DNA of 64,000 bases from a virus: the IMG/VR virus record IMGVR_UViG_3300026552_000002, positions 3,797 through 67,796 of that record. The stretch is one strand, 5' to 3'. This document shows positions 38,814-54,000 of the stretch, piece by piece. Every line of letters starts with the position of its first letter. Position 1 is the stretch's first letter. Both the position numbers and the translations under genes were made by a program. The notes beneath the pieces are model-generated. The model was not told the origin of the DNA. It did no database searches and was given only the letters and a program-made list of their open reading frames with translations.

Positions 38814-40291
38814 CAGGAGTAGACCTCCAACCAGGGATTGAGCTCGGCGTCGTCGATGTAGTCGGCGGATTCGTCCGGGTCCAGGTAGACCGATCCCCAG
38901 TCGAGTTCGGCGTTGACGGTGCGCACGGGCACGGGTACGGCCACCCCCTCGGGGGTCTCGACCCACTCCTGCTCGGCCGGCGGCTCGCTGCGCGGCACCC
39001 GGGCCAGCTCGCGCGGCAGTCCGGCCACCGCCAGGCTTACGGCGTCGGGCAGGTCGTCGTGCAGGGATTCCAGCCGGGCGCCGATGCGCAGGCCGCCGGT
39101 CGGGGTGGGCTGCGCGGTGATGCCGCCGAGCTGCTTGAGCATTTCGGGATGGTTGGGCAGCACCAGTTGCCGTTCGGTCAGCAGGATGCGCACCCGGCCG
39201 TAGGCGTCCTCTTTGGACACCATCGTCGTCGGGGTGGAGCGCACGTTGACCAGTCCCCCGAGCCGGCGACCGAGCTCCTCGCTGGGAAACGCCCCGACGC
39301 CGGTCGTCTCCGTGCGCACGGACAGCGACCAGTTCTTGGCCAGGGCCTCGACCTCGGCGACCTGCAGGCCGTAGCGCCGGCGCGAGGTCTCCGCCCAGGG
39401 CACGATGACGATCGAACGGCCGTTGTAGCCGTGGTCGTCGAGCAGTCCGGCCAAGGCCACGGCGTGCGCGTCCTGTCGTCTGCCCCAATCCAGGCCGCAG
39501 CTCACGGGCATCCGTTCGCCGTGCCGGCGCATCTCGAAGTCCGCCACACAGGCCATGAGGTCGGTGTGGTCGAAATAGGCGTCGCCGGAGGCGATGAACT
39601 GCCCTTCGTATTCGGCCTGAAACCGCAACGGAGACATGGTCGCCCGCGCGGCCTCGATGACGGACTCGGAGATCCAGTGCGCGTCGGCGAGTTTCCAGTG
39701 GAACGTGGCGATGTGGTCGTGGTGGGGATCGCGGCCTTGCATCGCGAAGGTGAAGAAACTGCCGGCGTCGCCCCAGGGGGATGAGGCCAGGATGATCCGG
39801 GCGTTCGGACGGGCCGCGGTGGTGGGCAGCGCCGCCGAGAGCAGCAGGTCTTCACTGACGAACGCGGCCTCGTCCACCAGCAGCAGGTCCACGCTCCAAC
39901 CACGCACCTGGCGTTCGGAGGCGGGCACCGAGCGGATCTCGCTGCCGTTGGCCAGCACCACCCGGTGTTGGGTCTCGTCCACCACGGCGCCGGCCAGCAG
40001 CGCGTGGGCGCAGATGTCACGGATCATGCGCAGCAACCGGCCGGCAGCCTCCTCGCCGGCGGAGACCAGCAGCACCATCTGCCGGGGCCGGCGGAACGCC
40101 CAGTGGATGGCCTTGAGGCTCAAAGTTTGGGATTTGCCGCACTGCCTGGGCGAGACGATGCAGGTGTGGCGTTTGTCCAGCCGCATGGCATCGAGCTGCC
40201 AGGACGTGCGCGGGTAGCCGAGAATCCGGCAGAACAGACCGAAGTCGTTGCGGGCCGCGCGCACGTCCTCGCGCTTAGGAATCGTCGGCAT
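38813..40291 (-). CDS. terL: terminase large subunit
   Basis: SPRQCGKS Walker A, LLLVDEAAF Walker B, GLDWG and HDDLPDA nuclease motifs. Confidence 0.95.
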   Translation of the reverse strand: MPTIPKREDVRAARNDFGLFCRILGYPRTSWQLDAMRLDKRHTCIVSPRQCGKSQTLSLKAIHWAFRRPRQMVLLVSAGEEAAGRLLRMIRDICAHALLAGAVVDETQHRVVLANGSEIRSVPASERQVRGWSVDLLLVDEAAFVSEDLLLSAALPTTAARPNARIILASSPWGDAGSFFTFAMQGRDPHHDHIATFHWKLADAHWISESVIEAARATMSPLRFQAEYEGQFIASGDAYFDHTDLMACVADFEMRRHGERMPVSCGLDWGRRQDAHAVALAGLLDDHGYNGRSIVIVPWAETSRRRYGLQVAEVEALAKNWSLSVRTETTGVGAFPSEELGRRLGGLVNVRSTPTTMVSKEDAYGRVRILLTERQLVLPNHPEMLKQLGGITAQPTPTGGLRIGARLESLHDDLPDAVSLAVAGLPRELARVPRSEPPAEQEWVETPEGVAVPVPVRTVNAELDWGSVYLDPDESADYIDDAELNPWLEVYS

Positions 40292-40829
40292 CGTCGGACC
40301 ACAGCTTGGTCAGATCCACACTGGTCCGAGCAACATCCGCCTGAATCCGGGAGAAGCTCAACGGGTCCAGACCCAGCTTGGAGCGCAGATTCATGGCCAG
40401 GGTCTCCTCGCGGTGCAAGCGCTCCATCGCCGAAGAGACCCGCTTGGTCATCGTGACGCGCTTCTTGCCGGTGTAGGTCTCGTCTTCCTCTTCCTCGGTG
40501 TGCACCCGCTCGCTCATGGCGTCCTCCACGCCCTGAACGCCGTCGAACTGGTTGAGGAAATCGGTGAGCAACTCGATGCGGGCCTCGGCCCGGAACAATG
40601 CCTTGATCGAGGACCGGTACATGGGGTTGTCCAGGTGCGGCGGCCAGCCCTCGGAGGTGCGGGCCTGGTGTTCGAGCTGCTCGGCCAGGGGTCCGAAGCG
40701 CCGCGGGGAGTTGGCGCCGTGCACCATCGACAGTGTGTGGCCCTTTTTGAACGGCTCCCGTTGGCCAGGGAAGGCCGGGGTCCACTCACCGGTCGTCGAG
40801 TCGACGCCCGAGTCTGGCGTATCGCCCAC
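40275..40829 (-). CDS. terS: terminase small subunit
   Basis: PFKKGH..HGA and KLGLDPLS; directly upstream of terL; GGAGG + GTG. Confidence 0.75.
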   Translation of the reverse strand: MGDTPDSGVDSTTGEWTPAFPGQREPFKKGHTLSMVHGANSPRRFGPLAEQLEHQARTSEGWPPHLDNPMYRSSIKALFRAEARIELLTDFLNQFDGVQGVEDAMSERVHTEEEEDETYTGKKRVTMTKRVSSAMERLHREETLAMNLRSKLGLDPLSFSRIQADVARTSVDLTKLWSDDADDS

Positions 40830-40935
40830 AAACCTCCCTGTGTGATACTGGGTCCAGCCCGGCGGAGCGGGCGCCTCTCGGGTGGAACCACGCAAGTGGC
40901 CGTAGATAGCGACCCCCGCCGGGCCCTTTCATGTC

Positions 40936-41073
40936 TGGCGCCCCCGCCCGGATTTGAACCGGGGTCTTCGCGCCGGGGCCACTCCGTGTCAGGCGGTTCG
41001 CCACCGTGCGCGCCGGCGGCTGGGGACTCGAACCCCGCGGCTGCGACGTCCTGGGCCGCTGGACGACAGGGGC
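40936..41073 (-). ncRNA. 138-nt tRNA-like RNA with expanded anticodon domain
   Basis: Acceptor GCCCCTG/CGGGGGC-G-CCA, D-arm GTCC-AGCGGCCCA-GGAC, T-arm CCCGG-TTCAAAT-CCGGG; about 70 nt between anticodon-stem arms TCGC/GCGA. Confidence 0.8.
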
Positions 41074-41554
41074 GACGACGCACCGACGGGCTGTGTCATC
41101 TGGTTGACGACGGCGATAACCTGCGGGCATGTCGACCGGCGTTGCCGTGCTCTGCGTGCTGCTGACGGCCGCGGCGGTGCATATCGGCATCGGGCACGCG
41201 GCGTTCGTTCGGCTGCGCCGCCGAGCCGCTGACCTCGCGCTGCACCCCCGCCAGGCCGATGATCTCGCGCTACGCGCACGCGATGCGGAGAAACCGAGAG
41301 GCTAATGCGGTATCTCGGCTTGGGGGACGTGCATTATACCCCCCGGTACCGGGCCTGGCAAGCACCGAGCTCACACTGTGACCGAGCCGTAACGTAGCCC
41401 TGGCGTTTGCATGTGCACAACCTACCGACATAACACTACTTATGTCGGTGTGTTGCATTAGCAAACGTCTCCATAGGACACGCGCGGCAACCTGGCATCT
41501 CGCACTGTTAGCCCAGCTCAGAGGGCAGGCTTAGCGATCACCATTGGTGCTCCA

Positions 41555-41762
41555 TTGTGGACACTCCACAACGGACACTCTATAGGGGACGCCTCTACTG
41601 TGGACGCTCCATACAGGACGCCTCTACAAGGGACGTCCACGGAGGACACGTCCACCGTGGACCCGAGCTCGGCAGTATGTCCGATATACCCTATTCCACT
41701 GTGGACGCCTCCACTGTGGACATGCCGGATATGTCCACTTCCGAGTCCACATATTGTGACTC
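41555..41762. repeat. degenerate tandem GGAC-n-CTCYAC repeats
   Basis: Eight GGAC-centred units at about 14-15 bp period, then further GTGGAC/GTCCAC copies. Confidence 0.6.
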
Positions 41763-42339
41763 CGGTCACAGTAGGGTAGTCCGTTCTATCCGAATCATCC
41801 CCACCGATGTGCCCCAGGTCACACCCCCAGTTCTCGTTTCCGCAGTTCACGCCTGTTGCGCTTCACAACAGGGAGGCGTAGTGTCGCTGTTGTTCGGCCA
41901 ACGGGGGCCGAGCGGGACGGCCGGAAGGGATCCGGACGGGCGAGCGAAAGGGACGCTCGCGAGCGGACCCGCACGACGCGGGAAGAGGGAAGGCAGCAGA
42001 CACAAGACACAGACTCCGGACCCACACAAAGAACGTGCATCGCGTGGCGCTGGACCGAGTAAGGCGGAGCATCCTCCGCTCAAAGGTCCCTCGACAAATT
42101 CTCGCTAGGGGCAGGCACCGACCGGAAGCCAAAGCCTCGACGCGGGCGGACACGCGACACACTCGGTAGCCGCGCAGCAGCGGTCCGAGCGGCCCTAGGG
42201 GCATCATATTTGCTGATGATCAATCCTCTCTCACTTGGGTTGATCATGCACGGTCGGATGATCACTTATCCACCCGTGCGTGGTCACACTCGCACGATCA
42301 CTCACGATCGCGCGGGATCCGAGCGAAAGGGAACGGATC

Positions 42340-42642
42340 ATGATTGTGGTCACGCTGAACAGCGCGCCGGTCGCTCGGTTCACCAACCGAGCTCGGATGC
42401 AAACATGGTTGTTGGCCAGCGGTCGAGTCACCACACGCGGCGGATTCAAAACACACACGTTCGCCAGCGAAAGCGACGCACCATGGCGACACCTCAACCG
42501 CGTCCCGCTAGACCCGACCGGCGCACCCACGCGCCGAACCTACGGACGCAACGTGTTAGCGCACACCAGCGAAGCAAACAAGCGCGCACGGACCAGTGAG
42601 CACCCGGTCGCGCGACGCGCTAAGGGTCGCTTGTGGGAGTGA
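42340..42642 (+). CDS. cassette ORF 1, basic hypothetical protein
   Basis: CCGAGCGAAAGGGAACGGATC-ATG leader resembling the repeat 3' end. Confidence 0.5.
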   Translation: MIVVTLNSAPVARFTNRARMQTWLLASGRVTTRGGFKTHTFASESDAPWRHLNRVPLDPTGAPTRRTYGRNVLAHTSEANKRARTSEHPVARRAKGRLWE

Positions 42643-42726
42643 GCGAATGACCAGTGTGGCGAACGGATACACGCCGTTCACCGCGCTGGCCATTAGGCCA
42701 ACTCCACCCGAGAGAAAGAACCGATC

Positions 42727-42921
42727 ATGGCGGAAGTCACCGATACCGAGATCATCACGATGCTTCAGACGGTTTTCGCTACGGAAGACGATTGGGACCT
42801 CTCCCGAGAGGCCAACGTTTCCGAGCGATACGTCTCCCAGCTCAACGGCAGACGACCCATAAAGCACGTCCGTAACTGCGGCTACCCGTCTGGCGGCGTG
42901 TGTCGCTACGTCACCCCGTGA
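42727..42921 (+). CDS. cassette ORF, small hypothetical
   Basis: Starts at repeat ATG; stop is TGA of next repeat. Confidence 0.7.
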   Translation: MAEVTDTEIITMLQTVFATEDDWDLSREANVSERYVSQLNGRRPIKHVRNCGYPSGGVCRYVTP

Positions 42922-43014
42922 CCAGCCTGGCGGACAGACTCATTACTCCGTCCGCCGTACTGGCTACTGAGCAACCAGCTAGCTGCTCTTCGACCCGAGA
43001 GACAGGACAAGATC

Positions 43015-43446
43015 ATGGCCGAGAAGGTCAACAGGCACGACGCAGACAACAGCAGAGACCCGTTGTTTCGCACCGCTGACCGTGTGCTGATCCGCGACGG
43101 ACTGCGCGTGTGGGACTACGACCTCAAGCCTGGCTCGGTGGACTTCACCGGATCGTCACTGTTCGATTCGCCGTATTGGAACGGCTGGTTCAACGTCATC
43201 ACCGACGACGGTCAGCACAGTCTCATGAACGGTGAACGGCTGTGCACCAAGCACCCGACCACGGGTGAGGCACCGTCGCCAGCGCCGGACAAGCTCTGCG
43301 ACTACTGCGACCAGCCTGCCGAACGGATCAGCAAGGACAGCGGCGAGCCGCTGTGCAAGGCGGATGCGCGCGACCAGTACGAAAACTGGCGCTACGACAC
43401 GACTGTGCTCACCCCGCACACGCTGAAGAAATACAGCCGAGCCTGA
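43015..43446 (+). CDS. cassette ORF with C-terminal Cys motif
   Basis: Repeat-bounded; CDYC..LC. Confidence 0.8.
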   Translation: MAEKVNRHDADNSRDPLFRTADRVLIRDGLRVWDYDLKPGSVDFTGSSLFDSPYWNGWFNVITDDGQHSLMNGERLCTKHPTTGEAPSPAPDKLCDYCDQPAERISKDSGEPLCKADARDQYENWRYDTTVLTPHTLKKYSRA

Positions 43447-43523
43447 CCGCTTGTGTCGTGTCCGGACCGTCCGGACACGGCACTGGCCGCCAGGCCAATT
43501 CCACCCGAGAGAAAGAGACGATC

Positions 43524-43841
43524 ATGGCATTCGAGAACGAGGAGCCCGCATCGCTGTCGATCTGCGAAGACTGCCTTCAGATCCTCGCCAATGGCGAGAT
43601 CAACGACGGCACGAACCGTGGCGAGAAGTGCGCAGCGGCCATGGCCGAGAAGTGGGGCGACATTCACATCACGCTCGGCACCCTGGAGCACAACGACGGG
43701 TGCAAGCGGGAGACCGACAGTGAGTGCGACTGCGAAGACCTGGGTTTTCGCACGTCGGACTGCGACGGTTGCGGCTCATCTTTCCATGGTGACCGTCACG
43801 CGGCGACCGCATGGATTCCGAAGACCTCCACCAACGCCTGA
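43524..43841 (+). CDS. cassette ORF, Cys-rich acidic protein
   Basis: ICEDC..CDC..CDGCGS..GDRH; repeat-bounded. Confidence 0.8.
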   Translation: MAFENEEPASLSICEDCLQILANGEINDGTNRGEKCAAAMAEKWGDIHITLGTLEHNDGCKRETDSECDCEDLGFRTSDCDGCGSSFHGDRHAATAWIPKTSTNA

Positions 43842-43918
43842 CCGCTTGTGTCGTGTCCGGGCAACCGGAAACGGCACTGGCCGCCAGGCCAATTCCACCC
43901 GAGAGAAGGACAACGATC

Positions 43919-44299
43919 ATGAAAGAACTCAACGACCTCATGGAGTTCGATCACGTGATCCGAGTGCACACGGACGGCAGTATCACCGAACCATCCGGAG
44001 TGCACGCACCGGAAATCATCGTGGACACGGACGATGACGGTCAGATTCTGAACGCGCACGAAAAGCAAATGATCCGAAACGTCCGCGCTCAGGGCTGGTC
44101 ACTGCTGACCGGATACACCGGACAGCACGGCTACCGGGGACCAATCATGCACCCGTCGGAATTCATCGGCGGACGGCTCGAAAAGGACATCCGGACCACA
44201 CCGGGTCTCTACGTCGCGGTCATCGTCACCACGCTGGACGCTGCTGACGACAGGGACGACGTCGCCGGATGGGCCGTTGCCCACCAAGAAACCACCTGA
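43919..44299 (+). CDS. cassette ORF, hypothetical
   Basis: MEFDHVIRV..GYTGQHGYRGPIMHPSEFIGG; repeat-bounded. Confidence 0.8.
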   Translation: MKELNDLMEFDHVIRVHTDGSITEPSGVHAPEIIVDTDDDGQILNAHEKQMIRNVRAQGWSLLTGYTGQHGYRGPIMHPSEFIGGRLEKDIRTTPGLYVAVIVTTLDAADDRDDVAGWAVAHQETT

Positions 44300-44376
44300 C
44301 CGCTTGTGTCGTGTCCGGACAACCGGAGACGGCACTGGCCGCCAGGCCAATTCCACCCGAGAGACAGGACAAGATC

Positions 44377-44958
44377 ATGAGCGCATGGGTGACCGGTCAC
44401 AACCTGACCGGATACCTACCGGAAAGCGACACGCACGCCTACTCCGAATGGAAAGACGCGCGTGACGTGCTGATCGCGAACATGCAGGAGTACGCGGACC
44501 GAGATGACGAGGCCGCATACGACCACCTGTCCGCGACCGCTCGCCGCGAAGACTACCCAGACTTCGAGAACAGCGGGTACGGGGACGACGAGCCGTCGAT
44601 GCGTGCACAGGTCGACGCAGTTCTTAAGGACGACGGACCACAGGAAGGCCAGAACTTCGGCGCGATCATCGAGGACAACGACGAGCGAAACATCACGTTC
44701 TGGCTGTGGTGGGAAGAAGACAGATGGCCAGATGACTGGCACTGGCAATGGTGTGCCAACGACCTCGACATCTCAACTCACTTCTACGCCGAGGACGACG
44801 CAGCCGAGGCGCGACTGTGGGTCGAGGACGGCACGCTAATCGTCGCATTGGAACGCCAGAACGACGGTTGGCACGTCAGCGGTTCGGACAGCTACCACTG
44901 GACCGAGGACGCGCGGACGTTCCGTAAGCCTACAGACTGGACCATGCCGAAAGCCTGA
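44377..44958 (+). CDS. cassette ORF, strongly acidic Trp-rich protein
   Basis: GHNLTGYLPESD; repeat-bounded. Confidence 0.8.
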   Translation: MSAWVTGHNLTGYLPESDTHAYSEWKDARDVLIANMQEYADRDDEAAYDHLSATARREDYPDFENSGYGDDEPSMRAQVDAVLKDDGPQEGQNFGAIIEDNDERNITFWLWWEEDRWPDDWHWQWCANDLDISTHFYAEDDAAEARLWVEDGTLIVALERQNDGWHVSGSDSYHWTEDARTFRKPTDWTMPKA

Positions 44959-45035
44959 CCGCTTGTGTCGTGTCCGGGCAACCGGAGACGGCACTGGCCG
45001 CCAAGCCAATTCCACCCGAGAGAAGGACAACGATC

Positions 45036-45392
45036 ATGCACAAATACGTACCGCGCCGGCAATCCAAACGCTGGCGGAACGGGGACTGCCCAGACGGGGT
45101 GCTGGCAATCTACGACGCTGGCCCGGAGACCTTCGACCGGTACACCGTGTTCTACGCCGAACCGGTCACCGGGACCACGTACGCGAACATGTGGCTCAGT
45201 TACCGAGGCATGTCCAAGCACCCGACAAGTCCACAAGGATTCGGCTGCGCCGGCGAGATGGAGGCGCACAAGGTCGCCGCGTATCGGTATCGGGTCAGGC
45301 ACCAGGCGTGCCGCTGGACCGACCTCCCGGACGAGGTGCGCGAACTCGTCAAGCGCGACCTGGCCGACCGCGAGGAAGCGAAGCAAACCTGA
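45036..45392 (+). CDS. cassette ORF, hypothetical
   Basis: IYDAGPETFDRYTVFY..GMSKHPTSPQGF..WTDLP; repeat-bounded. Confidence 0.8.
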   Translation: MHKYVPRRQSKRWRNGDCPDGVLAIYDAGPETFDRYTVFYAEPVTGTTYANMWLSYRGMSKHPTSPQGFGCAGEMEAHKVAAYRYRVRHQACRWTDLPDEVRELVKRDLADREEAKQT

Positions 45393-45470
45393 CCGCTTGT
45401 GTCGTGTCCGGACAACCGGATGCGGCACTGGCCGCCAAGCCAATTCCACCCGAGAGACAGGACAACGATC

Positions 45471-45875
45471 ATGAAGGACGAGCAGCTCACCCAGGTCCTG
45501 GACGGAGTCGCCACGGTCGTCAATTCCGGACCGCAAACCGGTTGGATCGAAGGCCGGGTCACCGGCCACCAGCACCCCAACAACCCCAACGCGCATCTGT
45601 GGGGCGACTGGGCGGACGACACGTCCAGCGAGTGGCGGTTCAACAACCGCAAGCCGCAAGAGCGGAAGTGCGCCTACGGCTGCACGCAGTTCCGCGCATG
45701 GACGGGACCGTTCGCTGAAGACAGCGTCCCGCACCTGCGAACGGCGCTGAAGCACCTCCGTCAAGCCCTCCGGATCGAGAAGTCGGACGACCAGTGGGGG
45801 CTGGCGCTGCCGATCCGCAAGATCCGCGATGACCTGGAAGAACTGATCGCGCGAATCGACAACCTGGAGGTCTGA
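45471..45875 (+). CDS. cassette ORF, hypothetical with C-terminal helical hairpin
   Basis: Repeat-bounded. Confidence 0.78.
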   Translation: MKDEQLTQVLDGVATVVNSGPQTGWIEGRVTGHQHPNNPNAHLWGDWADDTSSEWRFNNRKPQERKCAYGCTQFRAWTGPFAEDSVPHLRTALKHLRQALRIEKSDDQWGLALPIRKIRDDLEELIARIDNLEV

Positions 45876-45963
45876 TCCCTGACCGCCAGCGTGGTGGACG
45901 GACGAGCTCCGTTCGCCGCGCCGGCCGCCAGGCCGAATCCACCCGAGAGACAGGACAACGATC

Positions 45964-46323
45964 ATGACGAGCGACTACGCCTGGATCGTCGACAGCACCC
46001 GCACGCCCAACGAGGACGACACGGGAACCGTCGAGGACACCGAGTACAGCCGCAACGGCACCATGGGGCCGCGCACCGCACCGGCCGACCTGCTCGCCCG
46101 GCTGAAGGCCGGCGAGGGCCGGAAGTGGCGGACACTGGTTGACGTCGACTACGCGGGACACCCCGAGGAGCCTCGCGTAATCCACATCGGCCGGTACCTG
46201 GACCGAGGTGAGGACAGCGACGCCGAAGCGGAGTTCGGTCCGCTGGACGACCTCTCCCAGCCGGACTCCGGATGCGTCGACATCCAGTACCAGAACGACC
46301 AGGGCAAGTGGGAAACGCTCTGA
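45964..46323 (+). CDS. cassette ORF, acidic hypothetical
   Basis: YAWIVD..FGPLDD..GCVDIQY..GKWETL; repeat-bounded. Confidence 0.8.
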   Translation: MTSDYAWIVDSTRTPNEDDTGTVEDTEYSRNGTMGPRTAPADLLARLKAGEGRKWRTLVDVDYAGHPEEPRVIHIGRYLDRGEDSDAEAEFGPLDDLSQPDSGCVDIQYQNDQGKWETL

Positions 46324-46401
46324 CCGCCAGCGTGGTGGACGGACGAGAGCCGTTCGCCGCGCCGGCCGCCAGGCCGAATCCACCCGAGAGGAGAAACAAT
46401 C

Positions 46402-46746
46402 ATGCGTCGTTGCAGCCCTGTTCACGCCACGGCGGAAATCGTGACGGTGCGGAACGACAACGACATCCGCATCGGCACGGTGACCAAGGTCGAACCTTAC
46501 GGGTCACCGACTCCGCAGTACCTGACGCAGGCGCACGACTGGGACGGAGAGCACCCCGACCCGGCGGATCGGTACGACCCGATCACCGTGGGTGTGTTCG
46601 ACGACCCGGACATGGCATTTGGTGAGATCGAGCGCCGAGCACGCAAGGAACAGGCGCCGGAAACGTTCTGCCCCGGGCATGAAAGTCTCGACGGCGCCCA
46701 CATGGGTGAGTCCGTCTACTGCGACGGGTCATGCGTCAAGGGCTGA
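46402..46746 (+). CDS. cassette ORF, hypothetical
   Basis: C-terminal CPGHESLDGAHMGESVYCDGSC; repeat-bounded. Confidence 0.78.
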   Translation: MRRCSPVHATAEIVTVRNDNDIRIGTVTKVEPYGSPTPQYLTQAHDWDGEHPDPADRYDPITVGVFDDPDMAFGEIERRARKEQAPETFCPGHESLDGAHMGESVYCDGSCVKG

Positions 46747-46819
46747 CCGCCAGCGTGGTGGGCGGACGAGTTCCGTTCACTGCGCCGGCCGCCAGGCCGA
46801 ATCCGAGAGGAGAACGATC

Positions 46820-46987
46820 ATGACGCTGAGAGCACTGCTTGACGAGCTTCAGTACCTCGTCAAGCAGAACCCACGTAACGCCGACCGCACCGTCATCGAC
46901 GTGCAGTCCGGCTACGAGCTGTCCTCGGTCAACGTCGAATCGGACGACGAGGGTGACTGGGTGCTGCTGGAGTTCGCCAGAGACTGA
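46820..46987 (+). CDS. cassette ORF, 55-aa acidic protein
   Basis: MTLRALLDELQ..; repeat-bounded. Confidence 0.75.
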   Translation: MTLRALLDELQYLVKQNPRNADRTVIDVQSGYELSSVNVESDDEGDWVLLEFARD

Positions 46988-47084
46988 CCCTGACCTGACC
47001 ACCAGCATGGCACCCAGTGGTGTCCGACACCCTGGGTACCGTGCCGGTCGCCAGGACCGATACCACCCGAGAGGAGACACGATC

Positions 47085-47558
47085 ATGGACATGACCGAGC
47101 TCAAGAACCTGTCCCTATACGAGCTGGACAACATCGCTGGACTGAAGGTGGGCAGCGACGCGGACACGCCCAAGGGCAAGCAGATCCTGGAGGGTCTGCG
47201 GGACGCGATCGTGGAGGCAAGCGACTACGACCGGTGGGACGTACCACGGGGGCGTGCGGAGGTGATCCACGAGCTGGTGGACAGCCTCGTCCCGATCTAC
47301 ACCACGGACCGCGTCAAGGAGTTCGCGATCATCGCGGAGTGCTGGCACCTCGACCTGGAGGGCTTCAACGCCTACGCCGGCGCGTTCGACTTCGGCCAGC
47401 TCGACGTCTATCACATGGACAGCGAGACCACGGCGGTCGTGGAGATCGGCCGCGCGCTGTACCTGGCCTACACCCAGGCCATCCAGAACGTGCTGAAGTG
47501 GGTCGAGGAAAACCAGCCGGAGGACGAAGACGAGGACGAGGACGAGGACGAGGGCTGA
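47085..47558 (+). CDS. Ocr-like DNA-mimic / anti-restriction protein (putative)
   Basis: VIHELVDSLVPIYTTD resembles T7 Ocr AIHMAADNAVPHYYAD; poly-acidic tail EDEDEDEDEDEG. Confidence 0.65.
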   Translation: MDMTELKNLSLYELDNIAGLKVGSDADTPKGKQILEGLRDAIVEASDYDRWDVPRGRAEVIHELVDSLVPIYTTDRVKEFAIIAECWHLDLEGFNAYAGAFDFGQLDVYHMDSETTAVVEIGRALYLAYTQAIQNVLKWVEENQPEDEDEDEDEDEG

Positions 47559-47644
47559 CCGTCAGCGTGGTGCACGGACCTGTGCCGTTCACCGCGCCGG
47601 CCGTCAGACCAACTGTAGGGCCACCCGAGAGGAGAAGATCCACC

Positions 47645-47887
47645 ATGGCAAGCGAGGGTGCCGAGTTCGACGCTGTGATCGAGAGCGTGGACCGGCTCAA
47701 CAACAGCGCCAACGGCAATCCGCGATACCGCGTACATCTGCGCGGTGGCGACGTGCTTCAGACGAAGCCGGACGCGGCGATCAACTATGGGATCTCGAAC
47801 AGCGACGTCCACAACGTACCTGTGCGGATCACGACGGACGGCAAGAACCAGATCACCTACGTCACGAAAGAAGGCGAGCACATCTAG
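47645..47887 (+). CDS. cassette ORF, small beta-rich protein
   Basis: RLNNSANGNPRY..QTKPDA; repeat-bounded. Confidence 0.78.
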   Translation: MASEGAEFDAVIESVDRLNNSANGNPRYRVHLRGGDVLQTKPDAAINYGISNSDVHNVPVRITTDGKNQITYVTKEGEHI

Positions 47888-47974
47888 TCTCTGACCGCCG
47901 GCGTGGCGCCCGAGGTCACTCGGGTACCGCGCCGGCCGCCAGGCCGATTCCACCGGAAACAAGGAGACACGATC

Positions 47975-48181
47975 ATGGGTCAGCCGATTCCACCCGAGAT
48001 GGGGAGAACGATCATGGGTCAGGACACCCGTGTGCTGCTGGGTAACGCCCTCGCCATGGTCCGCCAAGCACGCAAGATCGAAACGGAAAACAGCGATGAG
48101 TGGGGTCTCGCCGGTTCCATTAATGACATCGAAAGAAAACTGCACACCCTGACCGAGAAGATGGACAACGGCGAAATCTAA
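47975..48181 (+). CDS. cassette ORF, helical protein (alternative start 48014)
   Basis: Two in-frame ATGs from a duplicated half repeat; similar to C-terminus of 45471-45875. Confidence 0.72.
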   Translation: MGQPIPPEMGRTIMGQDTRVLLGNALAMVRQARKIETENSDEWGLAGSINDIERKLHTLTEKMDNGEI

Positions 48182-48204
48182 TTCCACCCGAGAGGAGAAC
48201 GATC

Positions 48205-48588
48205 GTGGACGGGGAACCCTCGATCCAGGTTTGGAAACACCCCGAGATGGACATCCTGCGTGTCCAACTCGACGGAGACGAGATCCGCGAGGTGAATTTC
48301 GCGCGGTTCGAATATGGCGACCCTGTGAACGACGTCCCGGACGACTGGATGCTGCTCGCTCCGGTCGCCACATCCCGCGAAAACACCGAGAACGAGAATG
48401 GGGACGAACCCCAACATGGGGCACGCGCGGCCTGCCGAGTGTGCGATCTGGACATCGAATTTGGGTACGGAGAGTGGATCGACCGCGGGGGTAACAAGCG
48501 ATGCGCGACCGGCGGGGGTGCCAAGTACGACGTGGACGGCAACCCCATCCCTCTGCCCGACACACCGCATGTCCCACTCAAGGACTGA
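48205..48588 (+). CDS. cassette ORF, acidic hypothetical with CRVC motif
   Basis: GTG at end of half repeat; stop in next repeat. Confidence 0.72.
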   Translation: MDGEPSIQVWKHPEMDILRVQLDGDEIREVNFARFEYGDPVNDVPDDWMLLAPVATSRENTENENGDEPQHGARAACRVCDLDIEFGYGEWIDRGGNKRCATGGGAKYDVDGNPIPLPDTPHVPLKD

Positions 48589-48671
48589 CCGCCAGCGTGG
48601 CGGATGGGGTACCAGCTCCGTCCACCGCGCCGGCCGCCAGGCCGATTCCACCCGAGAGAAAGACAACGATC

Positions 48672-49778
48672 ATGACTACAACCGAACCGCGTGCGCCGTC
48701 GGACATCGCGACGGCACTCGGTGACCTGTTCGCTGAGCAGGGTGTTCGGGCGCGCGTCGTGGGTGCGAACACGGGTGCGGCCATCAGCCGGTACAACATC
48801 GCGTTGTCGCCGGGTGAGCGGCCGGAGAGCGTGCTCAAGCTGCTGCTAACCATCCAGTACACGCTGGGCACGCCCCAGGTCCGGATTCAGGTGCCGGTGC
48901 CGGGTCATCCGCTGATGGGGATCGAGGTGCCGAACGCCGAGCGGGTGACCGTGAAGCTCACGGACATTGACATGCGGGGCCAGCCGCGGCTGAGTGTGCC
49001 GTTGGGGCCGAACATCGATGGTGGTCCGCAGGTGGCCAACCTGGCGGACATGCCGCACCTGTTTCTAGCGGGTCAGACCGGCAGCGGTAAGAGCAACTGG
49101 TTGACGGCGGCGCTGTGCACGCTGTTCATGCGCAACCTGCCGGAAGACCTGCGGGCGCTGTTGATCGACCCGAAGATGGTGGAGTTCACGCCGTACCGAG
49201 GGCTGCCCCATCTGCTGCGTCCGCCGGTAACCGACCCGAACGAGGCGGTGCGGGCGCTGAAGCAGCTCTGTGAGGAGATGGATCGTCGCTACGAACGCAT
49301 GTGCGCCGCTGGCGTGCGTGACCTCGACTCCTACAACGCTCTGCCGGGTGTGGCGAGGATGGCGCGTATCGCGGCGGTGGTGGACGAGATCGCCGATCTG
49401 ATGGCCGTCGCCGGTAAGGCCGTGACGAACTACGTGCAGCGTGCCGGACAGAAGGCGCGAGCCAGCGGTATCCACCTGGTGCTGGCCACGCAGCACCCGT
49501 CGCGGAAGATCCTGCCGGGCGAGATCAAGACAAATGTGCCGGCGAGGTTGGCGTTCGCGTTGCCCCAGGCGGTGGATTCCCGGATGGCTCTCGACCGTCC
49601 CGGGGCGGAAAGTCTGCTCGGTGCGGGTGATGGGTTGTACTGCGCACCGAACGGCTCAATGGTGCGGTTCCAGGCACCGTACGTGACGGATGCCGAGCGG
49701 GATTACTTCATCGAGCGCGTACTGAAGCGGGATGCCCCGCAGGTCGCTCAGCGGCCACCATTGCGCGTGGTCAGTTAG
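48672..49778 (+). CDS. FtsK/SpoIIIE motor (alpha+beta) lacking TM and gamma domains
   Basis: GIEVPN, MPHLFLAGQTGSGKS, LIDPKMVE, VVDEIADLM, ARASGIHLVLATQ and GAESLLGAGD. Confidence 0.93.
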   Translation: MTTTEPRAPSDIATALGDLFAEQGVRARVVGANTGAAISRYNIALSPGERPESVLKLLLTIQYTLGTPQVRIQVPVPGHPLMGIEVPNAERVTVKLTDIDMRGQPRLSVPLGPNIDGGPQVANLADMPHLFLAGQTGSGKSNWLTAALCTLFMRNLPEDLRALLIDPKMVEFTPYRGLPHLLRPPVTDPNEAVRALKQLCEEMDRRYERMCAAGVRDLDSYNALPGVARMARIAAVVDEIADLMAVAGKAVTNYVQRAGQKARASGIHLVLATQHPSRKILPGEIKTNVPARLAFALPQAVDSRMALDRPGAESLLGAGDGLYCAPNGSMVRFQAPYVTDAERDYFIERVLKRDAPQVAQRPPLRVVS

Positions 49779-49791
49779 GGAAGGGGGAGCC

Positions 49792-50034
49792 ATGGAGATC
49801 AGCAAGGAGGAGTTGGGGCAGCTCATCGTCGGCTATGCCGAGATCGGTGACATGTACGAAGAGCTGCTGGGCAAGCGAGTCACGCTGTCGCTCATCCGGC
49901 GCTTGATGAATCATCCCCGAGCTCCCGGACGCATTCCGGGCCTGGCCACGGCGGTGTTCCTCCGCAGCGAGGCACGAGAATGGATTCTCACCGACCGGCC
50001 GGCAGGCAAGCACCTGGGACCGCGCAAGGGGTAG
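49792..50034 (+). CDS. small winged-helix/excisionase-like DNA-binding protein
   Basis: IVGYAEI..LIRRL..VFLRSEAREW pattern; GGGGAG RBS. Confidence 0.5.
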   Translation: MEISKEELGQLIVGYAEIGDMYEELLGKRVTLSLIRRLMNHPRAPGRIPGLATAVFLRSEAREWILTDRPAGKHLGPRKG

Positions 50035-51015: not shown

Positions 51016-54000
51016 TCAACTCGTGTAGCAGTCGGCCCAGTTGCGACCGGAGCCGGAGACGTCGGCGTGCACGGTGATCGGACGGCTGGCGCCGGGTGGG
51101 GCCCACTGGAAGGTCATGGCCTTGAGCACTTCGGCGGCGACCTCGTCCACGTCGTTCTCGGGGACTTCCAGCACGACCTCGTCGTGGACCTGAATGCGGA
51201 TCATGCGTGCGATGTCGTCGGGCAGCCGCAGTAGGCATTCCATCATCAGATCGCGGGCGGTGCCCTGGCCCATCAGCGCGGGTGCCTGGGTGTGGGCGCG
51301 GGCGGGGTTGCAGCGCATGAGCCGGCCGAAACCGTTGTCGAGCACACCGTGGCTGCGGGCCAGGTCGCGGACGTGCTCGCGCCAGGCGACTAGGCCGGGG
51401 AAGCGTTCGCGCATGGTGTGGTCGAACTCGGCGGCCACGTGCTCGGGTACGCCGGCGTTGCGAGCGAGTCCGTCCAGACCCATGCCGTAGTTCCAGCCGT
51501 GTCCGATGGCTTTGGCGTCCTGCCGGCGGCTGGCATCACCCCAGACCATGCGCGCGACCTCGGTGTGGGAGTCCACGCCGGGTTCGAACAGGCTCAGATA
51601 GGCCGGGTCCTGGCAGTGGGCGGCAACCGCGCGAGCGTCGATCTGGGACAGGTCGGCGGCGAGCAGGAGGTTGCCGTCGTCGGCGCGGAAGACGGCACGC
51701 TCGGCCACGCGACCGCCGCGCTTCCCGAACACGGTCAGTCCGGGCTTGGTCACCGACCACCGGCCGGATGCCTGGTACATGGTGATCTGGGGGTGCACGC
51801 GACCGTCGGCGTGGGTGTGTTCCAGGGCGGTGGCGTACACGGTGCGGGCGCCGGCCATGTCGGCGACCGCGTCGCAGAGCTCGGCCACCTCGCCGCCGTA
51901 TTTGCGGGCCAGCTCGCGCATCCCGTCGCCACCGAAGCTGTAGGCGCCCTTGTCGGTGCGGGGCAGGTCGGCGTCGTCCACGCCGAGGTCGGCGAAGGCG
52001 GCCACGAGTGCAGCTTTGCCTTCCTTGGTGGCGTGGGCGGACTCGACGGGTTTGCCAGCGGCGTTGACCGTGGGCAGGCCGTAGCGCTGGGCGAGCCGGC
52101 GGGTGAGGTCGGCCTTGCGGTTGCGGGTGCGCCAGTAGCGGTCCTGCAGCAGGGGCATGTCCACGGCCAGACCGGCATCGGACATGATCGCGGCGATGGC
52201 GGCCACACGGTGTTCGCGCCAGACGTAGTCGCGCAGGTGTGGGGCTTGGGCGTCGGCGAGTGCCCGGGTGGCGTCCACGTCGCCGCGCAGGTAGGCGCGG
52301 TACCGGGGGTCGTCGACCGGGATGGCGTCATAGCCGCCGTGGTGTTTGGCGAGTTCGTCGAGTCGGTCCGTCTTGCCGGGTAGTCCGCGGCGCTCGGCGA
52401 TGGCGTTCAGGCGGTAGCGCGCGGCGGCGCGGGCCACGGCGTTCGGCCGTTCGTCGACCTCCGGTGGATCGAGTACGGCTTCGGTGACCATGGTGTCCAG
52501 AACGCGCCGACAGCGGGTCAGTTCCAACAGGTCGATCGAGCCGGGTGCGACGGCGTCCAGCACGGGCAGGTCGAAGCTGATCAGGTTGTGTCCAACCAGC
52601 AGCTCGGCGTTGCCGGCGGCGTGGGCCACGGCGGGGATGTCGGTGGTGTCGTAGTACGTGCCGTCCGCGTTGAGACCAGCCAGGCGGACGAACGCCCGGG
52701 GGTCGGTGTCGTAGCGATCCTTCTTGGCATCGCCGGTTTCCAGGTCCAGCACAATCGCTACCGGCGCGCGAGGTGGCGCGGTATCCAGCACGGCACTGTC
52801 GACTTCCAGCGCCTGGGCCTTGATCATTTCTCGTCGGGGAGCATCCGGCTCTGATGACTCTGTGTGACCATTGGAGTTGATCAGTTGTTGATCATGGGTT
52901 CCAGAGGTTCCAAAGTTCGCCGTTCCCCATAGGGAAAAGCCCTGTTGATCTCGTGATGCAAAATCTGTGGGGAACGACAACTTTGGAACCTCTGGAACTT
53001 CGCAGGTCAACAGATCAACTTTAGTTCTCGCTGAACCGACCATCTCCCGGTTATCCACAACCTGTGGATAACTCCCCTCGTCATGATCATCTCGGAAGCG
53101 CAGCCCCATCCAGGCCCAATAAGCGGATGGAATGTCACTCGTGGTGACTGCTCCCGGCCGAGCGGGACGCTGCGACAACCCCTCCTGTCGCTTGATCTTG
53201 CGGCGTTTGACTCCGCGTCCGGTGATCTCCGAGTGGCCCTCCAGTCGACTGGTCAGCAACTGCTTGGACCAGGGCCGGTGTCCCTGTCCGGTGAGGTACT
53301 CGTTGATGTCGTCGAGCAGCTCGGACGACATGACGTGCCGGTTCGCGTCGAAGATCATCCGCTCGTCGAGCCAACCCCAGATCAGGTCCGCACCGGCCCG
53401 CCACTCCCGGGTGTCGGCCAGCACACGCTCGGGATGGGTGGGCATGACCTTGCCGGCCGCGTACCACTTCCGGGCACCGTCGACCAACCACGCCAACACG
53501 GCTTCGTGCTGGCCGGTCTCGCCAAGCCGGATGCGCTCCCGCAGGCCCGGATCGCCACGGCGGTCGTGCTCGCGCACCAGCTCGGCCTCCCGCCCGCGGA
53601 ACCGATAGGGAAACCGCAGCGCGGCCAGTCGGCGCCAGGTGCCGTGGTCGACCTCCTGGACCACGGGCAGGTAGTTCGTCGACAAGAACAGCGAGTGCGT
53701 CGCGGCGAAGGTGATCGGATCGCGGCGCATCCGCCGGGCGGTGATGGTGGGCGTGCCGATCAGGGCCTTGAGCTTGACCACCTCCAGCCGCCGCGCCTCC
53801 GGAGTTTCCTCCAGCAGCGCCAGCCGCGCCCCGTGGAAATCCATCAACTCGGTAGGTACCGAGTCCGACGACGCCAGCAGCGCGCGGTGCGAGACATCCA
53901 GGAAGAACCCGCCCAGTGCGCCCCGCAGACCCGTCATGACCGTAGTTTTGCCGTTCTCACCCCCGCCGACCTGGACCAACAACGTGTCGTCCGGGGTCAT

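What the first reader, a model, noticed from the sequence alone, without database searches (positions are those of the whole stretch)
42340..49778. Phage-borne array of ~16 single-gene cassettes joined by a conserved structured stop-to-start repeat
Seen: intergenic gaps from 42.6 to 48.7 kb are each filled by a copy (14 full, 2 half) of one ~80-nt element: TGACC, long hairpin, GGCCGCCAGGCC, ATTCCACCCGAGAG, purine-rich RBS, GATC-ATG. In 10 of 14 full copies the TGA is the upstream gene's stop codon, and the final ATG/GTG starts the next gene. Cargo genes are mostly unrelated, short and co-oriented. Known analogues: integron attC arrays, mycobacteriophage start-associated sequences, and RNase III sites between T7 early genes. 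None is known to me to combine all three functions of stop, hairpin and RBS/start in one unit. Inference: a modular gene-capture and expression platform for early or anti-defence genes, with the repeat as both expression signal and recombination substrate.
Basis: partly seen in the sequence, partly recalled or inferred. Interest (0 to 1): 0.92.

Follow-up and report, generated by a model that had tools for sequence, protein, structure and literature searches.

The report
Repeated hairpin punctuation between phage genes
An uncultivated soil phage of actinobacteria separates about sixteen small genes with copies of one ~85-base unit, a hairpin that begins at the stop codon followed by a fixed ribosome-binding leader; it is a more elaborate relative of repeat motifs already known in other phages, and its function is untested.

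Summary
14 full copies, 2 half copies and 1 degenerate copy of an ~85-nt unit fill the gaps between 16 co-oriented genes at 42.3-48.7 kb of a complete 67.8-kb temperate phage genome. Each unit has two modules. The first is a 20-24-bp imperfect hairpin whose first paired bases are C-UG of the stop codon. The second is an unstructured leader, CCACCCGAGAG plus a purine-rich SD and GATC-ATG. The hairpin covaries strongly and is more stable on the sense strand, so it most likely acts in mRNA. Homologous units occur in only two other viral records: G004, a relative with 68% TerL identity and the same synteny, and G006, an otherwise unrelated phage. None of the cargo proteins is shared between these genomes. 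Copies within a genome resemble each other far more than copies in different genomes. My best reading (0.5) is an intercistronic RNA element for processing, stabilising or insulating, joined to a standardised translation start. Its copies are homogenised by recombination and mark where genes turn over. It is not an integron: the window phage has no tyrosine recombinase and no attC core. It meets neither the SAS consensus nor the PeSL promoter criterion, yet both are close known analogues. I call it a new variant of a known kind, interest 0.58.

The parts
42265..42342 (+). Degenerate leader-only copy (ATCCGAGCG-AAAGGGAACGGATC-ATG) before the first ORF; no hairpin module
   Evidence: R1 13.7 bits, E 0.2; read
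42340..42642 (+). ORF 0, 100 aa, pI 11.9. A doubtful gene: it was not picked by my GC3 filter
42643..42729 (+). Full unit 1. The true upstream stop is at 42640; the unit's TGACC is at 42648
   Evidence: R1 83.8 bits; fold z -4.35
42727..42921 (+). ORF 1, 64 aa
42914..43017 (+). Full unit 2, the most divergent copy (long linker, CGACCCGAGAG); its TGA is the stop
   Evidence: R1 50.4 bits
43015..43446 (+). ORF 2, 143 aa, 4 Cys
43442..43526 (+). Full unit 3 (hairpin type A); its TGA is the stop
   Evidence: R1 95.3 bits
43524..43841 (+). ORF 3, 105 aa, 8 Cys, phrog_3034 (unknown function)
43837..43921 (+). Full unit 4 (type A); its TGA is the stop
   Evidence: R1 96.6 bits
43919..44299 (+). ORF 4, 126 aa
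44295..44379 (+). Full unit 5 (type A); its TGA is the stop
   Evidence: R1 95.3 bits
44377..44958 (+). ORF 5, 193 aa, pI 4.2, 13 Trp
44954..45038 (+). Full unit 6 (type A); its TGA is the stop
   Evidence: R1 93.6 bits
45036..45392 (+). ORF 6, 118 aa, phrog_4496; 58% identical to hypothetical proteins of Mycobacterium phages, with weaker matches in Rhodococcus phages
45388..45473 (+). Full unit 7 (type A); its TGA is the stop
   Evidence: R1 92.0 bits
45471..45875 (+). ORF 7, 134 aa; its C-terminus is homologous to ORF 13
45878..45966 (+). Full unit 8 (type B); the true stop lies 7 nt upstream
   Evidence: R1 101.5 bits
45964..46323 (+). ORF 8, 119 aa, phrog_12268 (unknown function)
46319..46404 (+). 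Full unit 9 (type B); its TGA is the stop
   Evidence: R1 96.9 bits
46402..46746 (+). ORF 9, 114 aa
46742..46822 (+). Full unit 10 (type B; 4-nt deletion in the core); its TGA is the stop
   Evidence: R1 80.7 bits
46820..46987 (+). ORF 10, 55 aa
46994..47087 (+). Full unit 11 (own hairpin type); the true stop is at 46985
   Evidence: R1 75.8 bits
47085..47558 (+). ORF 11, 157 aa, pI 4.1, with an acidic Glu/Asp tail
47554..47647 (+). Full unit 12 (lower stem fully paired, CUGAC/GUCAG); its TGA is the stop; start context CCACCATG
   Evidence: R1 76.6 bits; fold
47645..47887 (+). ORF 12, 80 aa, phrog_20597 (unknown function)
47890..47977 (+). Full unit 13 (core variant CCACCGGAAAC). The true stop, TAG, lies upstream. 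Its hairpin is 77% identical to a G004 copy
   Evidence: R1 82.9 bits
47980..48016 (+). Half unit (leader only), created by a 39-bp tandem duplication (47943-47981 / 47982-48020) that repeats the leader and the codons ATGGGTCAG
   Evidence: R1 19.0 bits; read
47975..48181 (+). ORF 13, 68 aa from 47975 or 55 aa from the in-frame ATG at 48014
48180..48207 (+). Half unit (leader only). The TAA stop of ORF 13 is fused to AATTCCACCCGAGAG; the start is GTG
   Evidence: R1 22.2 bits for 48148-48207
48205..48588 (+). ORF 14, 127 aa
48584..48674 (+). Full unit 14 (type B variant); its TGA is the stop
   Evidence: R1 96.8 bits
48672..49778 (+). FtsK/SpoIIIE-like gene, 368 aa, the last gene served by a unit; 46% identical to the gene that follows the G004 array
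   Evidence: PF01580 2.6e-45

Best explanation
The unit is a two-module intercistronic 'punctuation mark' that works mainly in the polycistronic mRNA of a block of small accessory genes.

Module 1 is a long imperfect hairpin with the pattern (((.(.(((.(13 bp)-loop-(13 bp).))).).))). Its first paired bases are the C before the stop and the U and G of UGA. Its lower stem (CUGACCGC / GCCGCCAG, with fixed mismatches) is conserved in sequence. Its upper stem is conserved only in pairing.

Module 2 is an unstructured leader: CCACCCGAGAG, an AGGA/GGAG Shine-Dalgarno and GAUC-AUG. It gives every gene the same translation-initiation region.

Inferred mechanism: the hairpin is a double-strand RNase (RNase III-type) processing site, or a 3'-end stabiliser and insulator. 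Either role would uncouple each cistron from its neighbours. The uniform leader sets, or allows common control of, translation.

Inferred secondary consequence: because about 85 nt are repeated 14 times in one direction, the copies recombine or convert one another and become the seams at which genes are gained, lost or swapped.

Shown here: the anatomy, the covariation, the strand bias, conservation across three genomes, cargo turnover, and within-genome homogenisation.

Not shown here: transcription, cleavage, any effect on translation, or any recombination event.
For: 1. Structure is selected. On a 26-copy alignment from two phages, 92.5% of cells pair, against 28-48% when the partners are slid. 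14 of 20 pairs carry changes on both sides. 0 of 500 shuffles reach the observed values. RNAalifold on the 14 window copies finds 11 of 18 pairs with compensatory changes. 10 of the 14 window copies were folded on their own, giving z from -2.3 to -4.35.

2. Sense-strand bias. The sense strand folds better than its reverse complement in 23 of 26 copies (window 9 of 12, G004 14 of 14; mean -4.9 kcal/mol; Wilcoxon p 9e-5). It uses 87 G-U among 539 pairs, against 45 among 498. One U-G pair is kept in 24 of 25 distinct rows.

3. Position. All copies have one orientation, in the gaps of one co-oriented gene block, and the leader is predicted to be unpaired.

4. Not a promoter or a canonical terminator. 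No sigma-70-like site lies on the + strand of 40.8-50.4 kb, and none of the 5 terminator-like sites coincides with a unit. No U-tract follows the hairpin.

5. Conservation with total cargo turnover. G004 has 68% TerL identity and the same order: TerL, divergent array, FtsK-like gene. It carries 12 units that R2 recognises plus 2 divergent ones, with the same hairpin plan but a different leader, GTCAAGGAGGT. 0 of 16 window proteins and 0 of 11 G004 array proteins match across the two arrays; only FtsK does. G006 shares none of 8 marker proteins or 28 array proteins, yet has units with the same lower stem and a CCCAACCCGAGAGGA leader.

6. Homogenisation. For 24 of 26 copies the nearest relative is in the same genome, at up to 96-100% identity, while the flanking genes are unrelated. 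Leader variants are assorted among hairpin types.
Against: - No RNA data exist. No listed run that holds the phage is on record as RNA, so transcription, operon structure and cleavage are all inferred.
- The copies are not independent, because many are near-duplicates. The strand-bias and covariation statistics therefore overstate the number of events. In the window alone the strand bias is modest (9 of 12 copies, -1.4 kcal/mol).
- RNase III has no sequence rule that I could test.
- The sequence-conserved lower stem and the conserved 11-mer could equally be protein-binding sites in DNA, as Pope et al. argued for ESAS.
- Leader variants differ by only 1-3 nt, so the assortment could be homoplasy.
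- The family was found in only three records. The collection scans were by exact patterns, not by covariance model, so its true range is unknown.
Confidence: 0.5

Rival explanations
1. PeSL-type mobile regulatory cassette. The main evolutionary role of the unit would be as a portable stretch of homology through which general recombination inserts, deletes and swaps single genes, also between unrelated phages; expression signals travel with it. This overlaps with the best explanation and differs in which role is primary.
For: - Cargo is entirely different in the three genomes that share the unit.
- The unit occurs in a phage with no other detectable homology.
- Units 90-100% identical flank unrelated genes.
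- Half units and a 39-bp duplication sit at unit edges.
- One domain is shared between ORF 7 and ORF 13.
- PeSLs have the same stop-to-ATG layout and produce mini-circles (PMC2839356, passages).
Against: - No indel at a unit boundary was seen. No close relative could be compared, and the contigs of the two holding runs show no joints, although contigs drop rare variants.
- No RecT-type recombinase was found in the phage.
- Strong covariation with G-U bias shows selection on an RNA fold, which homology alone does not require.
- The PeSL-defining sigma-70 promoter is absent.
Confidence: 0.2
2. DNA-level operator array, like stoperators or ESAS. A phage regulator (this phage encodes several HTH proteins) would bind the conserved asymmetric 11-14-mer or the conserved lower-stem halves in double-stranded DNA and silence or time the whole block.
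For: - A one-orientation asymmetric motif is present 14 times in one operon.
- The phage is temperate: a serine recombinase lies outside the window and HTH_31 proteins are present.
- Pope et al. favoured DNA-binding proteins for ESAS (PMC3203893, passages).
- The leader motif differs between phages while the rest is kept, as expected for co-evolution with a phage-specific binder.
Against: - The upper stem keeps its pairing but not its sequence, and prefers G-U on the sense strand. A duplex DNA site would not do that.
- The motif sits at a fixed 10-14 nt from the start codon and overlaps the SD.
- No regulator has been tied to it.
Confidence: 0.12
3. Attenuating terminators without a U-tract, possibly followed by a phage-specific promoter in each unit, so that each gene is its own small transcription unit.
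For: - Each unit is a GC-rich hairpin directly after a stop codon.
- A paper title reports tail-less terminators in the early region of actinophage phiC31 (Ingham 1995). I saw it only in a reference list, and the paper is not held.
- PeSL stem-loops act as terminators.
Against: - No U-tract and no sigma-70-like hexamers are present.
- Mycobacterial RNA polymerase does not terminate at hairpins lacking U-tracts in vitro (PMC3993855, abstract).
- 14 efficient terminators in series would silence the distal genes, including the conserved FtsK-like gene.
Confidence: 0.08
4. Selfish or neutral small repeat (MITE or REP-like) that has colonised intergenic gaps, or a host repeat family copied by the phage.
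For: - Dispersed near-identical copies.
- Presence in an unrelated phage.
Against: - Strict single orientation, exact docking on stop and start codons, and covariation.
- The lower-stem pattern is not enriched in any of 401 sampled Actinomycetes genomes: at most about 7 matches per genome, against 0-4 for the reversed control. The listed matches did not look like hairpins on reading. That tally includes 7 unpublished genomes: G380, G014, G043, G037, G050, G039 and G311.
- No terminal inverted repeats or target duplications are seen on reading.
Confidence: 0.05
5. attC-like sites of an integron-type, site-specific cassette system.
For: - The architecture is loosely similar: conserved imperfectly paired outer boxes, a variable inner stem, and an array of promoterless single-gene units.
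Against: - No tyrosine recombinase in the 67.8-kb phage (PF00589: 0 hits, while all 14 control genomes hit).
- The only recombinase found is a serine integrase far from the array.
- The outer boxes (CTGACCGC / GCCGCCAG) are not the attC core as I recall it.
- The unit carries an SD and the start codon, which attC sites do not.
Confidence: 0.03

Closest known systems
Start-Associated Sequences with Extended SAS (SAS/ESAS) of cluster K mycobacteriophages, and the SAS-like motif of Microbacterium cluster EF phages
   Same: - A conserved asymmetric motif that contains the SD core lies just upstream of start codons.
- It has one orientation and is confined to non-structural genes.
- It is often preceded by an inverted repeat with a variable spacer, and upstream stop codons sometimes fall inside the motif.
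- It is conserved across subclusters while the genes differ, and its function is unknown (PMC3203893, passages; PMC7302621, passages; PMC12699233, passages).
   Different: - The sequence is unrelated. GGGATAGGAGCCC with up to 2 mismatches gives 1 hit in the window, outside the array, against 1.5 expected.
- The conserved core here lies 10-14 nt from the start, not 3-7 nt.
- For the ESAS repeats the authors found little support for RNA pairing, whereas here pairing covaries strongly and is strand-biased.
- The stem is 20-24 bp and docks on the stop codon.
PeSL (promoter-early stem-loop) cassettes of T4-type phages
   Same: [quoted passage not shown]
- They are densely repeated between small ORFans in hyperplastic regions.
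- They are proposed, and partly shown, to mediate modular shuffling (PMC2839356, passages; PMC4122927, abstract).
   Different: - PeSLs are built around a strong sigma-70-type early promoter, which is absent here.
- Their stem-loops were shown to terminate transcription.
- The hosts are Gram-negative.
- Here the lower stem is sequence-conserved across phages, and no mini-circle or indel evidence exists.
RNase III processing sites between the early genes of phage T7 (recalled; no call)
   Same: - Intercistronic imperfect hairpins of roughly two helical turns in a polycistronic early transcript.
- No U-tract.
- The 3' hairpins left after cleavage stabilise the messages.
   Different: - The T7 sites are few and are not fused to a repeated leader or to the stop codon.
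- Cleavage is demonstrated there and only inferred here.
Short intergenic repeats of other actinobacteriophage clusters (cluster O 17-bp, cluster EG 18-bp inverted repeats, cluster EC 18-bp motif)
   Same: - 8-34 copies lie in short intergenic gaps of non-structural regions, 14-30 bp upstream of starts.
- In cluster EG they are conserved between phages that share little sequence in that region (PMC4351075 and PMC7302621, passages).
   Different: - Those motifs are 17-18 bp with invariant arms (protein-site-like) and are not tied to stop codons.
- The present unit is about five times longer, with a covarying stem.
Integron attC arrays (recalled; no call)
   Same: - Arrays of single-gene units separated by structured repeats with conserved outer and variable inner parts.
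   Different: - No IntI-type recombinase.
- The units carry their own SD and start codon.
- The strand bias points to RNA.

Membership tests
SAS/ESAS (cluster K mycobacteriophages) | 13-bp consensus GGGATAGGAGCCC with up to 2 mismatches (criterion quoted in PMC12699233) | tested here: not met
   1 match in the window (58224-58236, minus strand, outside the array) against 1.5 expected
SAS/ESAS (cluster K mycobacteriophages) | Motif 3-7 bp upstream of start codons, one orientation, in non-structural genes | tested here: inconclusive
   Orientation and gene class fit. The conserved 11-mer ends 10-14 nt before the start, with the SD in between.
SAS/ESAS (cluster K mycobacteriophages) | ESAS: imperfect 17-bp inverted repeats, 4-13-bp spacer, departures that do not support RNA pairing | tested here: not met
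   Stems of 20-24 pairs, with 14 of 20 pairs changed on both sides and 92.5% of cells paired
PeSL cassettes (T4-type phages) | Strong sigma-70-like early promoter inside the unit | tested here: not met
   The only promoter-like site in 40.8-50.4 kb is on the minus strand at 41361-41333. The scan covers sigma-70-type promoters only.
PeSL cassettes (T4-type phages) | Stem-loop plus SD and start codon, filling the gap from the upstream stop to the downstream ATG | tested here: met
PeSL cassettes (T4-type phages) | Indels or replacements between close relatives bounded by the units; mini-circles | not testable with these tools
   No close relative could be retrieved. Only distant relatives, with complete cargo turnover, were available. 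Contigs of the 2 holding runs show no joints.
Integron (attC / IntI) | Tyrosine recombinase of the integron-integrase type next to the array | tested here: not met
   PF00589: 0 matches in the whole 67.8-kb record, while all 14 control genomes hit
Integron (attC / IntI) | attC core sites (RYYYAAC ... GTTRRRY, recalled) | tested here: not met
   By reading, the outer boxes are CTGACCGC ... GCCGCCAG
Canonical intrinsic terminator | GC-rich hairpin immediately followed by a U-tract | tested here: not met
   None of the 5 terminator-like sites coincides with a unit. The hairpin is followed by AATTCCACCC or similar.
RNase III intercistronic processing site (T7 type) | Imperfect double-stranded stem of about 20 bp or more, inside a polycistronic transcript | tested here: inconclusive
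   The stem geometry fits, with 17-24 predicted pairs. The transcript itself was not observed.
RNase III intercistronic processing site (T7 type) | Cleavage by RNase III | not testable with these tools
   No RNA holder was listed
Rfam families | Match to any curated covariance model | tested here: not met
   0 matches at E up to 1 in 41000-50000, on both strands

The most novel reading that the evidence does not exclude
A portable RNA 'punctuation cassette' shared by otherwise unrelated actinobacterial phages. A dedicated host or phage factor would recognise the sequence-fixed, mismatch-bearing lower stem that contains the stop codon, and would couple termination of one cistron to processing and standardised initiation of the next. 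The same 85-nt module would be the recombination seam through which single accessory genes move between phage lineages. In effect this would be an actinophage counterpart of PeSLs, built on RNA structure instead of a promoter.
Probability: 0.25. Interest if true: 0.8.

Novelty: new variant of a known kind. Interest (0 to 1): 0.58.

Why it matters
Conserved start-linked repeats (SAS/ESAS and similar motifs) have been catalogued in hundreds of actinobacteriophages since 2011 without a tested function.

This family is unusually informative for three reasons:
- Its hairpin carries enough compensatory and G-U changes to argue for an RNA structure.
- It is fused to both the stop and the start codon.
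- It is kept in three genomes whose cargo genes, and in one case all other genes, differ.

That makes a concrete, cheap experiment possible: place the unit between two reporters and compare wild type with an rnc mutant and with compensatory stem mutants. If it works as proposed, it would also be a ready-made insulator and cistron separator for high-GC actinomycete engineering. It would further explain how blocks of small accessory genes turn over in these phages.

Tried and rejected
**Searches that found no further copies**
- Near and distant DNA searches of 50,697 cultured-phage records found no unit. Only the coding region of ORF 6 matched, at about 65%.
- Exact-pattern scans:
  - The leader pattern in viral contigs gave 23 single hits, none above 23.6 bits with R1.
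  - The 26-nt pattern gave 0 hits in metagenome contigs.
  - The same pattern gave 2 single hits in species genomes, at most 16.6 bits.
  - The G004 leader pattern found only G004 plus 6 single hits, and R2 found nothing in those.
  - The two-module pattern gave 19 contigs, of which only G006 is real.
I scanned the 80 listed loci with R2, so more members may exist.

**Relatives without arrays**
- TerL relatives G001, G002 and G003 have no dispersed 12-mer families.
- G005 had no R1 hit.
- Six metagenome loci with upstream flank had no repeat family and no R1/R2 hits.
- FtsK relatives are distant low-GC phages.
- A 75% TerL relative sits in an Amycolatopsis cynarae chromosome.

**Reads**
- No RNA holder was listed.
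- Contigs of the two DNA runs, which are possible sources of this record, are identical to the window, break at the repeats and show no joints. The two metatranscriptome runs only touched a low-complexity stretch at 47520-47553.

**Cargo function**
- Pfam gave nothing over cut-off.
- The ESM Atlas gave no usable hit for ORFs 5 and 11.

**Ideas rejected by reading**
- Read-through, selenocysteine or bypassing: stop-to-start distances are 76-96 nt, in all three frames.
- CRISPR-like array: spacings are 400-700 bp and contain ORFs.

**Tools and papers not available**
- Kin of a virus record are not drawn.
- Ingham 1995 is not held.
- I did not ask for supplementary files. The SAS/ESAS alignments of the cited papers are in figures and supplements that I did not see, so finer likeness to ESAS cannot be excluded.
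- The literature searches turned up no description of this unit. They were word searches and do not show that it is not in print.

Full report
**What the window is.** The window is bases 3797-67796 of a 67,796-bp virus record with direct terminal repeats. It is a tailed phage of a high-GC host.
- TerL lies at 38813-40291 (-), the portal at 34846-38043 (-) and the tape measure at 21858-25547 (-).
- A primase-PolA fusion lies at 51016-55803 (-), an SNF2 helicase at 56068-57849 (-) and an FtsK-like gene at 48672-49778 (+).
- A serine recombinase lies just outside the window, so the phage is probably temperate. No tyrosine recombinase and no RecT were found.
- The best TerL relative is 75% identical and sits in an Amycolatopsis cynarae chromosome. 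ORF 6 of the array has 58% identical homologues in Mycobacterium phages (45 records), with weaker matches in Rhodococcus phages (38). An actinomycete host is therefore likely.
- Two soil metagenome runs hold the sequence.

**The observation.** It holds in every countable respect.
- The 11-mer CCACCCGAGAG (up to 1 mismatch) occurs 15 times against 2.8 expected. 14 of those are on the + strand at 42.7-48.7 kb.
- GATCATG occurs 31 times against 7.6 expected. 15 of those are on the + strand at 42.2-48.7 kb.
- There are 14 full units, 2 leader-only half units and a degenerate leader before the first ORF.
- The unit's TGA is the upstream stop in 10 of 14 full copies; in the other four the stop lies 4-12 nt upstream. 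The unit's last codon starts the next ORF in all 17 cases.
- One half unit (47980-48016) is the product of a 39-bp tandem duplication that repeats the leader and the first three codons. In the other (48180-48207) a TAA stop is fused directly to the leader.
- The 15 small ORFs share one homologous stretch only. 13 of the 15 have pI below 6.
- None has a Pfam family over cut-off. Four match PHROGs families of unknown function.
- A exceeds T strongly on the + strand across the array (AT skew +0.21 to +0.28).

**Anatomy.** The unit has two modules.
The common minimum-free-energy shape is (((.(.(((.(13 bp) loop (13 bp).))).).))). The first paired bases are the C before the stop and the U and G of UGA.
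- The lower stem (CUGACCGC... / ...GCCGCCAG) keeps its sequence and its mismatches. The upper stem keeps its pairing only.
- An alternative fold gives a 13-bp stem followed by a small GGCC-GCCA-GGCC hairpin.
- Module 2 (AATT-CCACCCGAGAG, an AGGA/GGAG purine run, GAUC-AUG) is predicted to be unpaired. It resembles an extended Shine-Dalgarno; the likeness to the complement of the actinobacterial 16S 3' tail is recalled, not tested.
- The hairpin is not followed by a U-tract. No sigma-70-like promoter is predicted on the + strand of 40.8-50.4 kb. Rfam has no match.

**Is the structure selected, and on which strand?**
- On the 14 window copies, RNAalifold finds 11 of 18 pairs with compensatory changes.
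- I aligned the 14 window hairpins with 12 of the 14 from phage G004. Two G004 copies with a different 5' end were left out.
- On that alignment my 20-pair structure is paired in 92.5% of cells, against 28-48% when partners are slid. 14 of 20 pairs change on both sides, and no shuffle out of 500 reaches the observed values.
- 26 copies were folded in both orientations: 12 from the window (2 missed my regex) and 14 from G004. The sense strand is more stable in 23 of 26, with a mean of -4.9 kcal/mol and Wilcoxon p of 9e-5. It uses 87 G-U pairs among 539, against 45 among 498.
- The copies are related, so these are not independent events. In the window alone the bias is modest (9 of 12).
- Even so, a fold that keeps pairing, tolerates G-U and is read in the direction of the genes is best explained as RNA.

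**Relatives.** No unit was found in cultured phages. Exact-pattern scans of viral, metagenome and species-genome collections gave only chance singletons. An alignment of TerL relatives retrieved five viral records and 80 metagenome loci. Only one, G004, has the unit.

G004 (TerL 68%):
- It has the same layout as the window: TerL, a divergent array, then an FtsK-like gene 46% identical to the window's.
- It carries 14 units on 7.5 kb.
- Their hairpins follow the same plan and partly the same sequence. W47891 and G12877 are 77% identical.
- The leader is different: CAGAC...GTCAAGGAGGTA, a canonical strong SD.
- None of 16 window array proteins and none of 11 G004 array proteins has a match in the other genome at E up to 0.01. 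Only FtsK does.

The other TerL relatives:
- G001, G002 and G003 have no dispersed repeat family.
- G005 had no R1 hit.
- Six metagenome loci with upstream flank have none either.

G006, a third member, came from a lower-stem pattern scan followed by the hairpin model R2:
- It is a 46-kb temperate phage with its own TerL, head protein, primase and tyrosine integrase.
- It shares none of 8 marker proteins or 28 array proteins with the other two genomes.
- At least two of its units score 41 and 37 bits, and three weaker ones are evident by reading.
- They have the same CUGAC(C/U)GC...GGCCGCCAGACC lower stem. On my ORF calls they sit on stop codons in 4 of 5 cases.
- Each is followed by a CCCAACCCGA(G/A)AGGA leader before the next start. 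The pattern that found G006 did not ask for that leader.
- A last scan that demanded both modules found G006 again and nothing else.

The lower-stem pattern is not enriched in any of 401 sampled Actinomycetes genomes.

**Dynamics.**
- For 24 of 26 copies the nearest relative lies in the same genome.
- Sub-families of 90-100% identity (five type-A copies and three type-B copies in the window; two identical copies in G004) flank unrelated genes.
- Each genome has its own uniform leader.
- Leader variants are distributed across hairpin types: ACAGGACAA(C)GATC follows three different hairpin types. These variants differ by only 1-3 nt, so homoplasy is possible.
- Together with the half units and the 39-bp duplication, this is the signature of concerted evolution: copies are exchanged or converted at the DNA level.
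- No actual gain or loss at a unit boundary could be observed. The only reads available are contigs, which are identical to the window and show no joints.

**Mechanism.** I commit to an RNA-level intercistronic element.
- The hairpin would be a double-strand RNase (RNase III-type) processing site, or a 3'-end stabiliser and insulator.
- It is joined to a standard translation-initiation region.
- Recombination between copies would be a real but secondary consequence that makes the units the seams of gene turnover.
- Shown: anatomy, covariation, strand bias, conservation, turnover and homogenisation.
- Inferred: transcription as an operon, cleavage, translational effect and exchange events.
- The rivals, in order, are:
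  1. a PeSL-type mobile cassette with recombination as the primary role;
  2. a DNA operator array for a phage regulator;
  3. tail-less terminators with internal promoters;
  4. a selfish repeat;
  5. attC-like sites.

**Comparison with known systems.**
- SAS/ESAS of cluster K, and the SAS-like motif of cluster EF, are the closest described actinophage features. The consensus is not met. The ESAS repeats were reported not to support RNA pairing (PMC3203893, passages).
- PeSLs of T4-type phages have the same stop-to-ATG composite layout and a demonstrated role in shuffling (PMC2839356, passages). They are defined by a sigma-70 promoter that is absent here.
- Cluster EG repeats are likewise conserved where the genes are not (PMC7302621, passages).
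- The unit works like a mixture of these. It is not a member of any of them by their defining features.
- It is not an integron.

**Verdict.**
- This is a real, well-defined and evolutionarily maintained element.
- It is a new variant of a known kind of phage regulatory repeat.
- It has unusually clear evidence for an RNA fold and for spread beyond one phage lineage.
- Its function is untested.

Noticed in passing
window 41540-41760: A cluster of short repeats built on GTGGAC/GTCCAC (for example CTCCAYTGTGGACRC, at least 3 copies of a 29-mer plus further half sites). It lies in the 1.4-kb non-coding gap between the leftward structural genes and the rightward array, and is possibly an origin, operator or packaging region.
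   Followed up: no
window 41333-41361 (-): A near-consensus sigma-70 promoter (TTGCCA-17-TATAAT, 11 of 12) points leftward towards the terminase and structural genes. No comparable site is predicted for the rightward array.
   Followed up: no
window 40875-40885 (-): A single exact copy of CCACCCGAGAG lies on the opposite strand, at the start of the first leftward ORF (40275-40895). It has no hairpin module and no nearby ATG, so it may be chance.
   Followed up: no
window 51016-55803 (-): One 1595-aa ORF fuses a D5_N/DUF5906 primase-helicase region with a family A DNA polymerase domain. In the actinophages that match it, these are separate genes.
   Followed up: no
G000:C1:1-1474, outside the window: A large serine recombinase (Resolvase domain, 68.8 bits, 480-aa open frame) lies next to the genome end. 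It suggests a temperate life style.
   Followed up: partly
window 47520-47553: A GAC/GAG-rich low-complexity stretch codes for the acidic tail of ORF 11. It attracts unrelated metagenome and metatranscriptome contigs and inflates depth about five-fold.
   Followed up: no
L033 400-6450: An unrelated low-GC phage, reached through its FtsK-like gene, has its own family of 6 intergenic hairpins with a conserved GTGTCACAGC loop region and a T-run, followed by conserved SD/start boxes. This is a canonical-terminator analogue of the same layout.
   Followed up: no
L191 (G006) 1713, 2442, 2767, 4243, 4441: In G006 the units separate groups of 1-3 genes. Within a group the genes overlap by ATGA (stop and start overlap), so units and translational coupling alternate in one block.
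   Followed up: no
L070 8153-8222 (G004, minus strand): The unit before the G004 FtsK-like gene has the leader AGAAAGGAGGTGATC. This looks like the full complement of the actinobacterial 16S rRNA 3' tail as I recall it.
   Followed up: no
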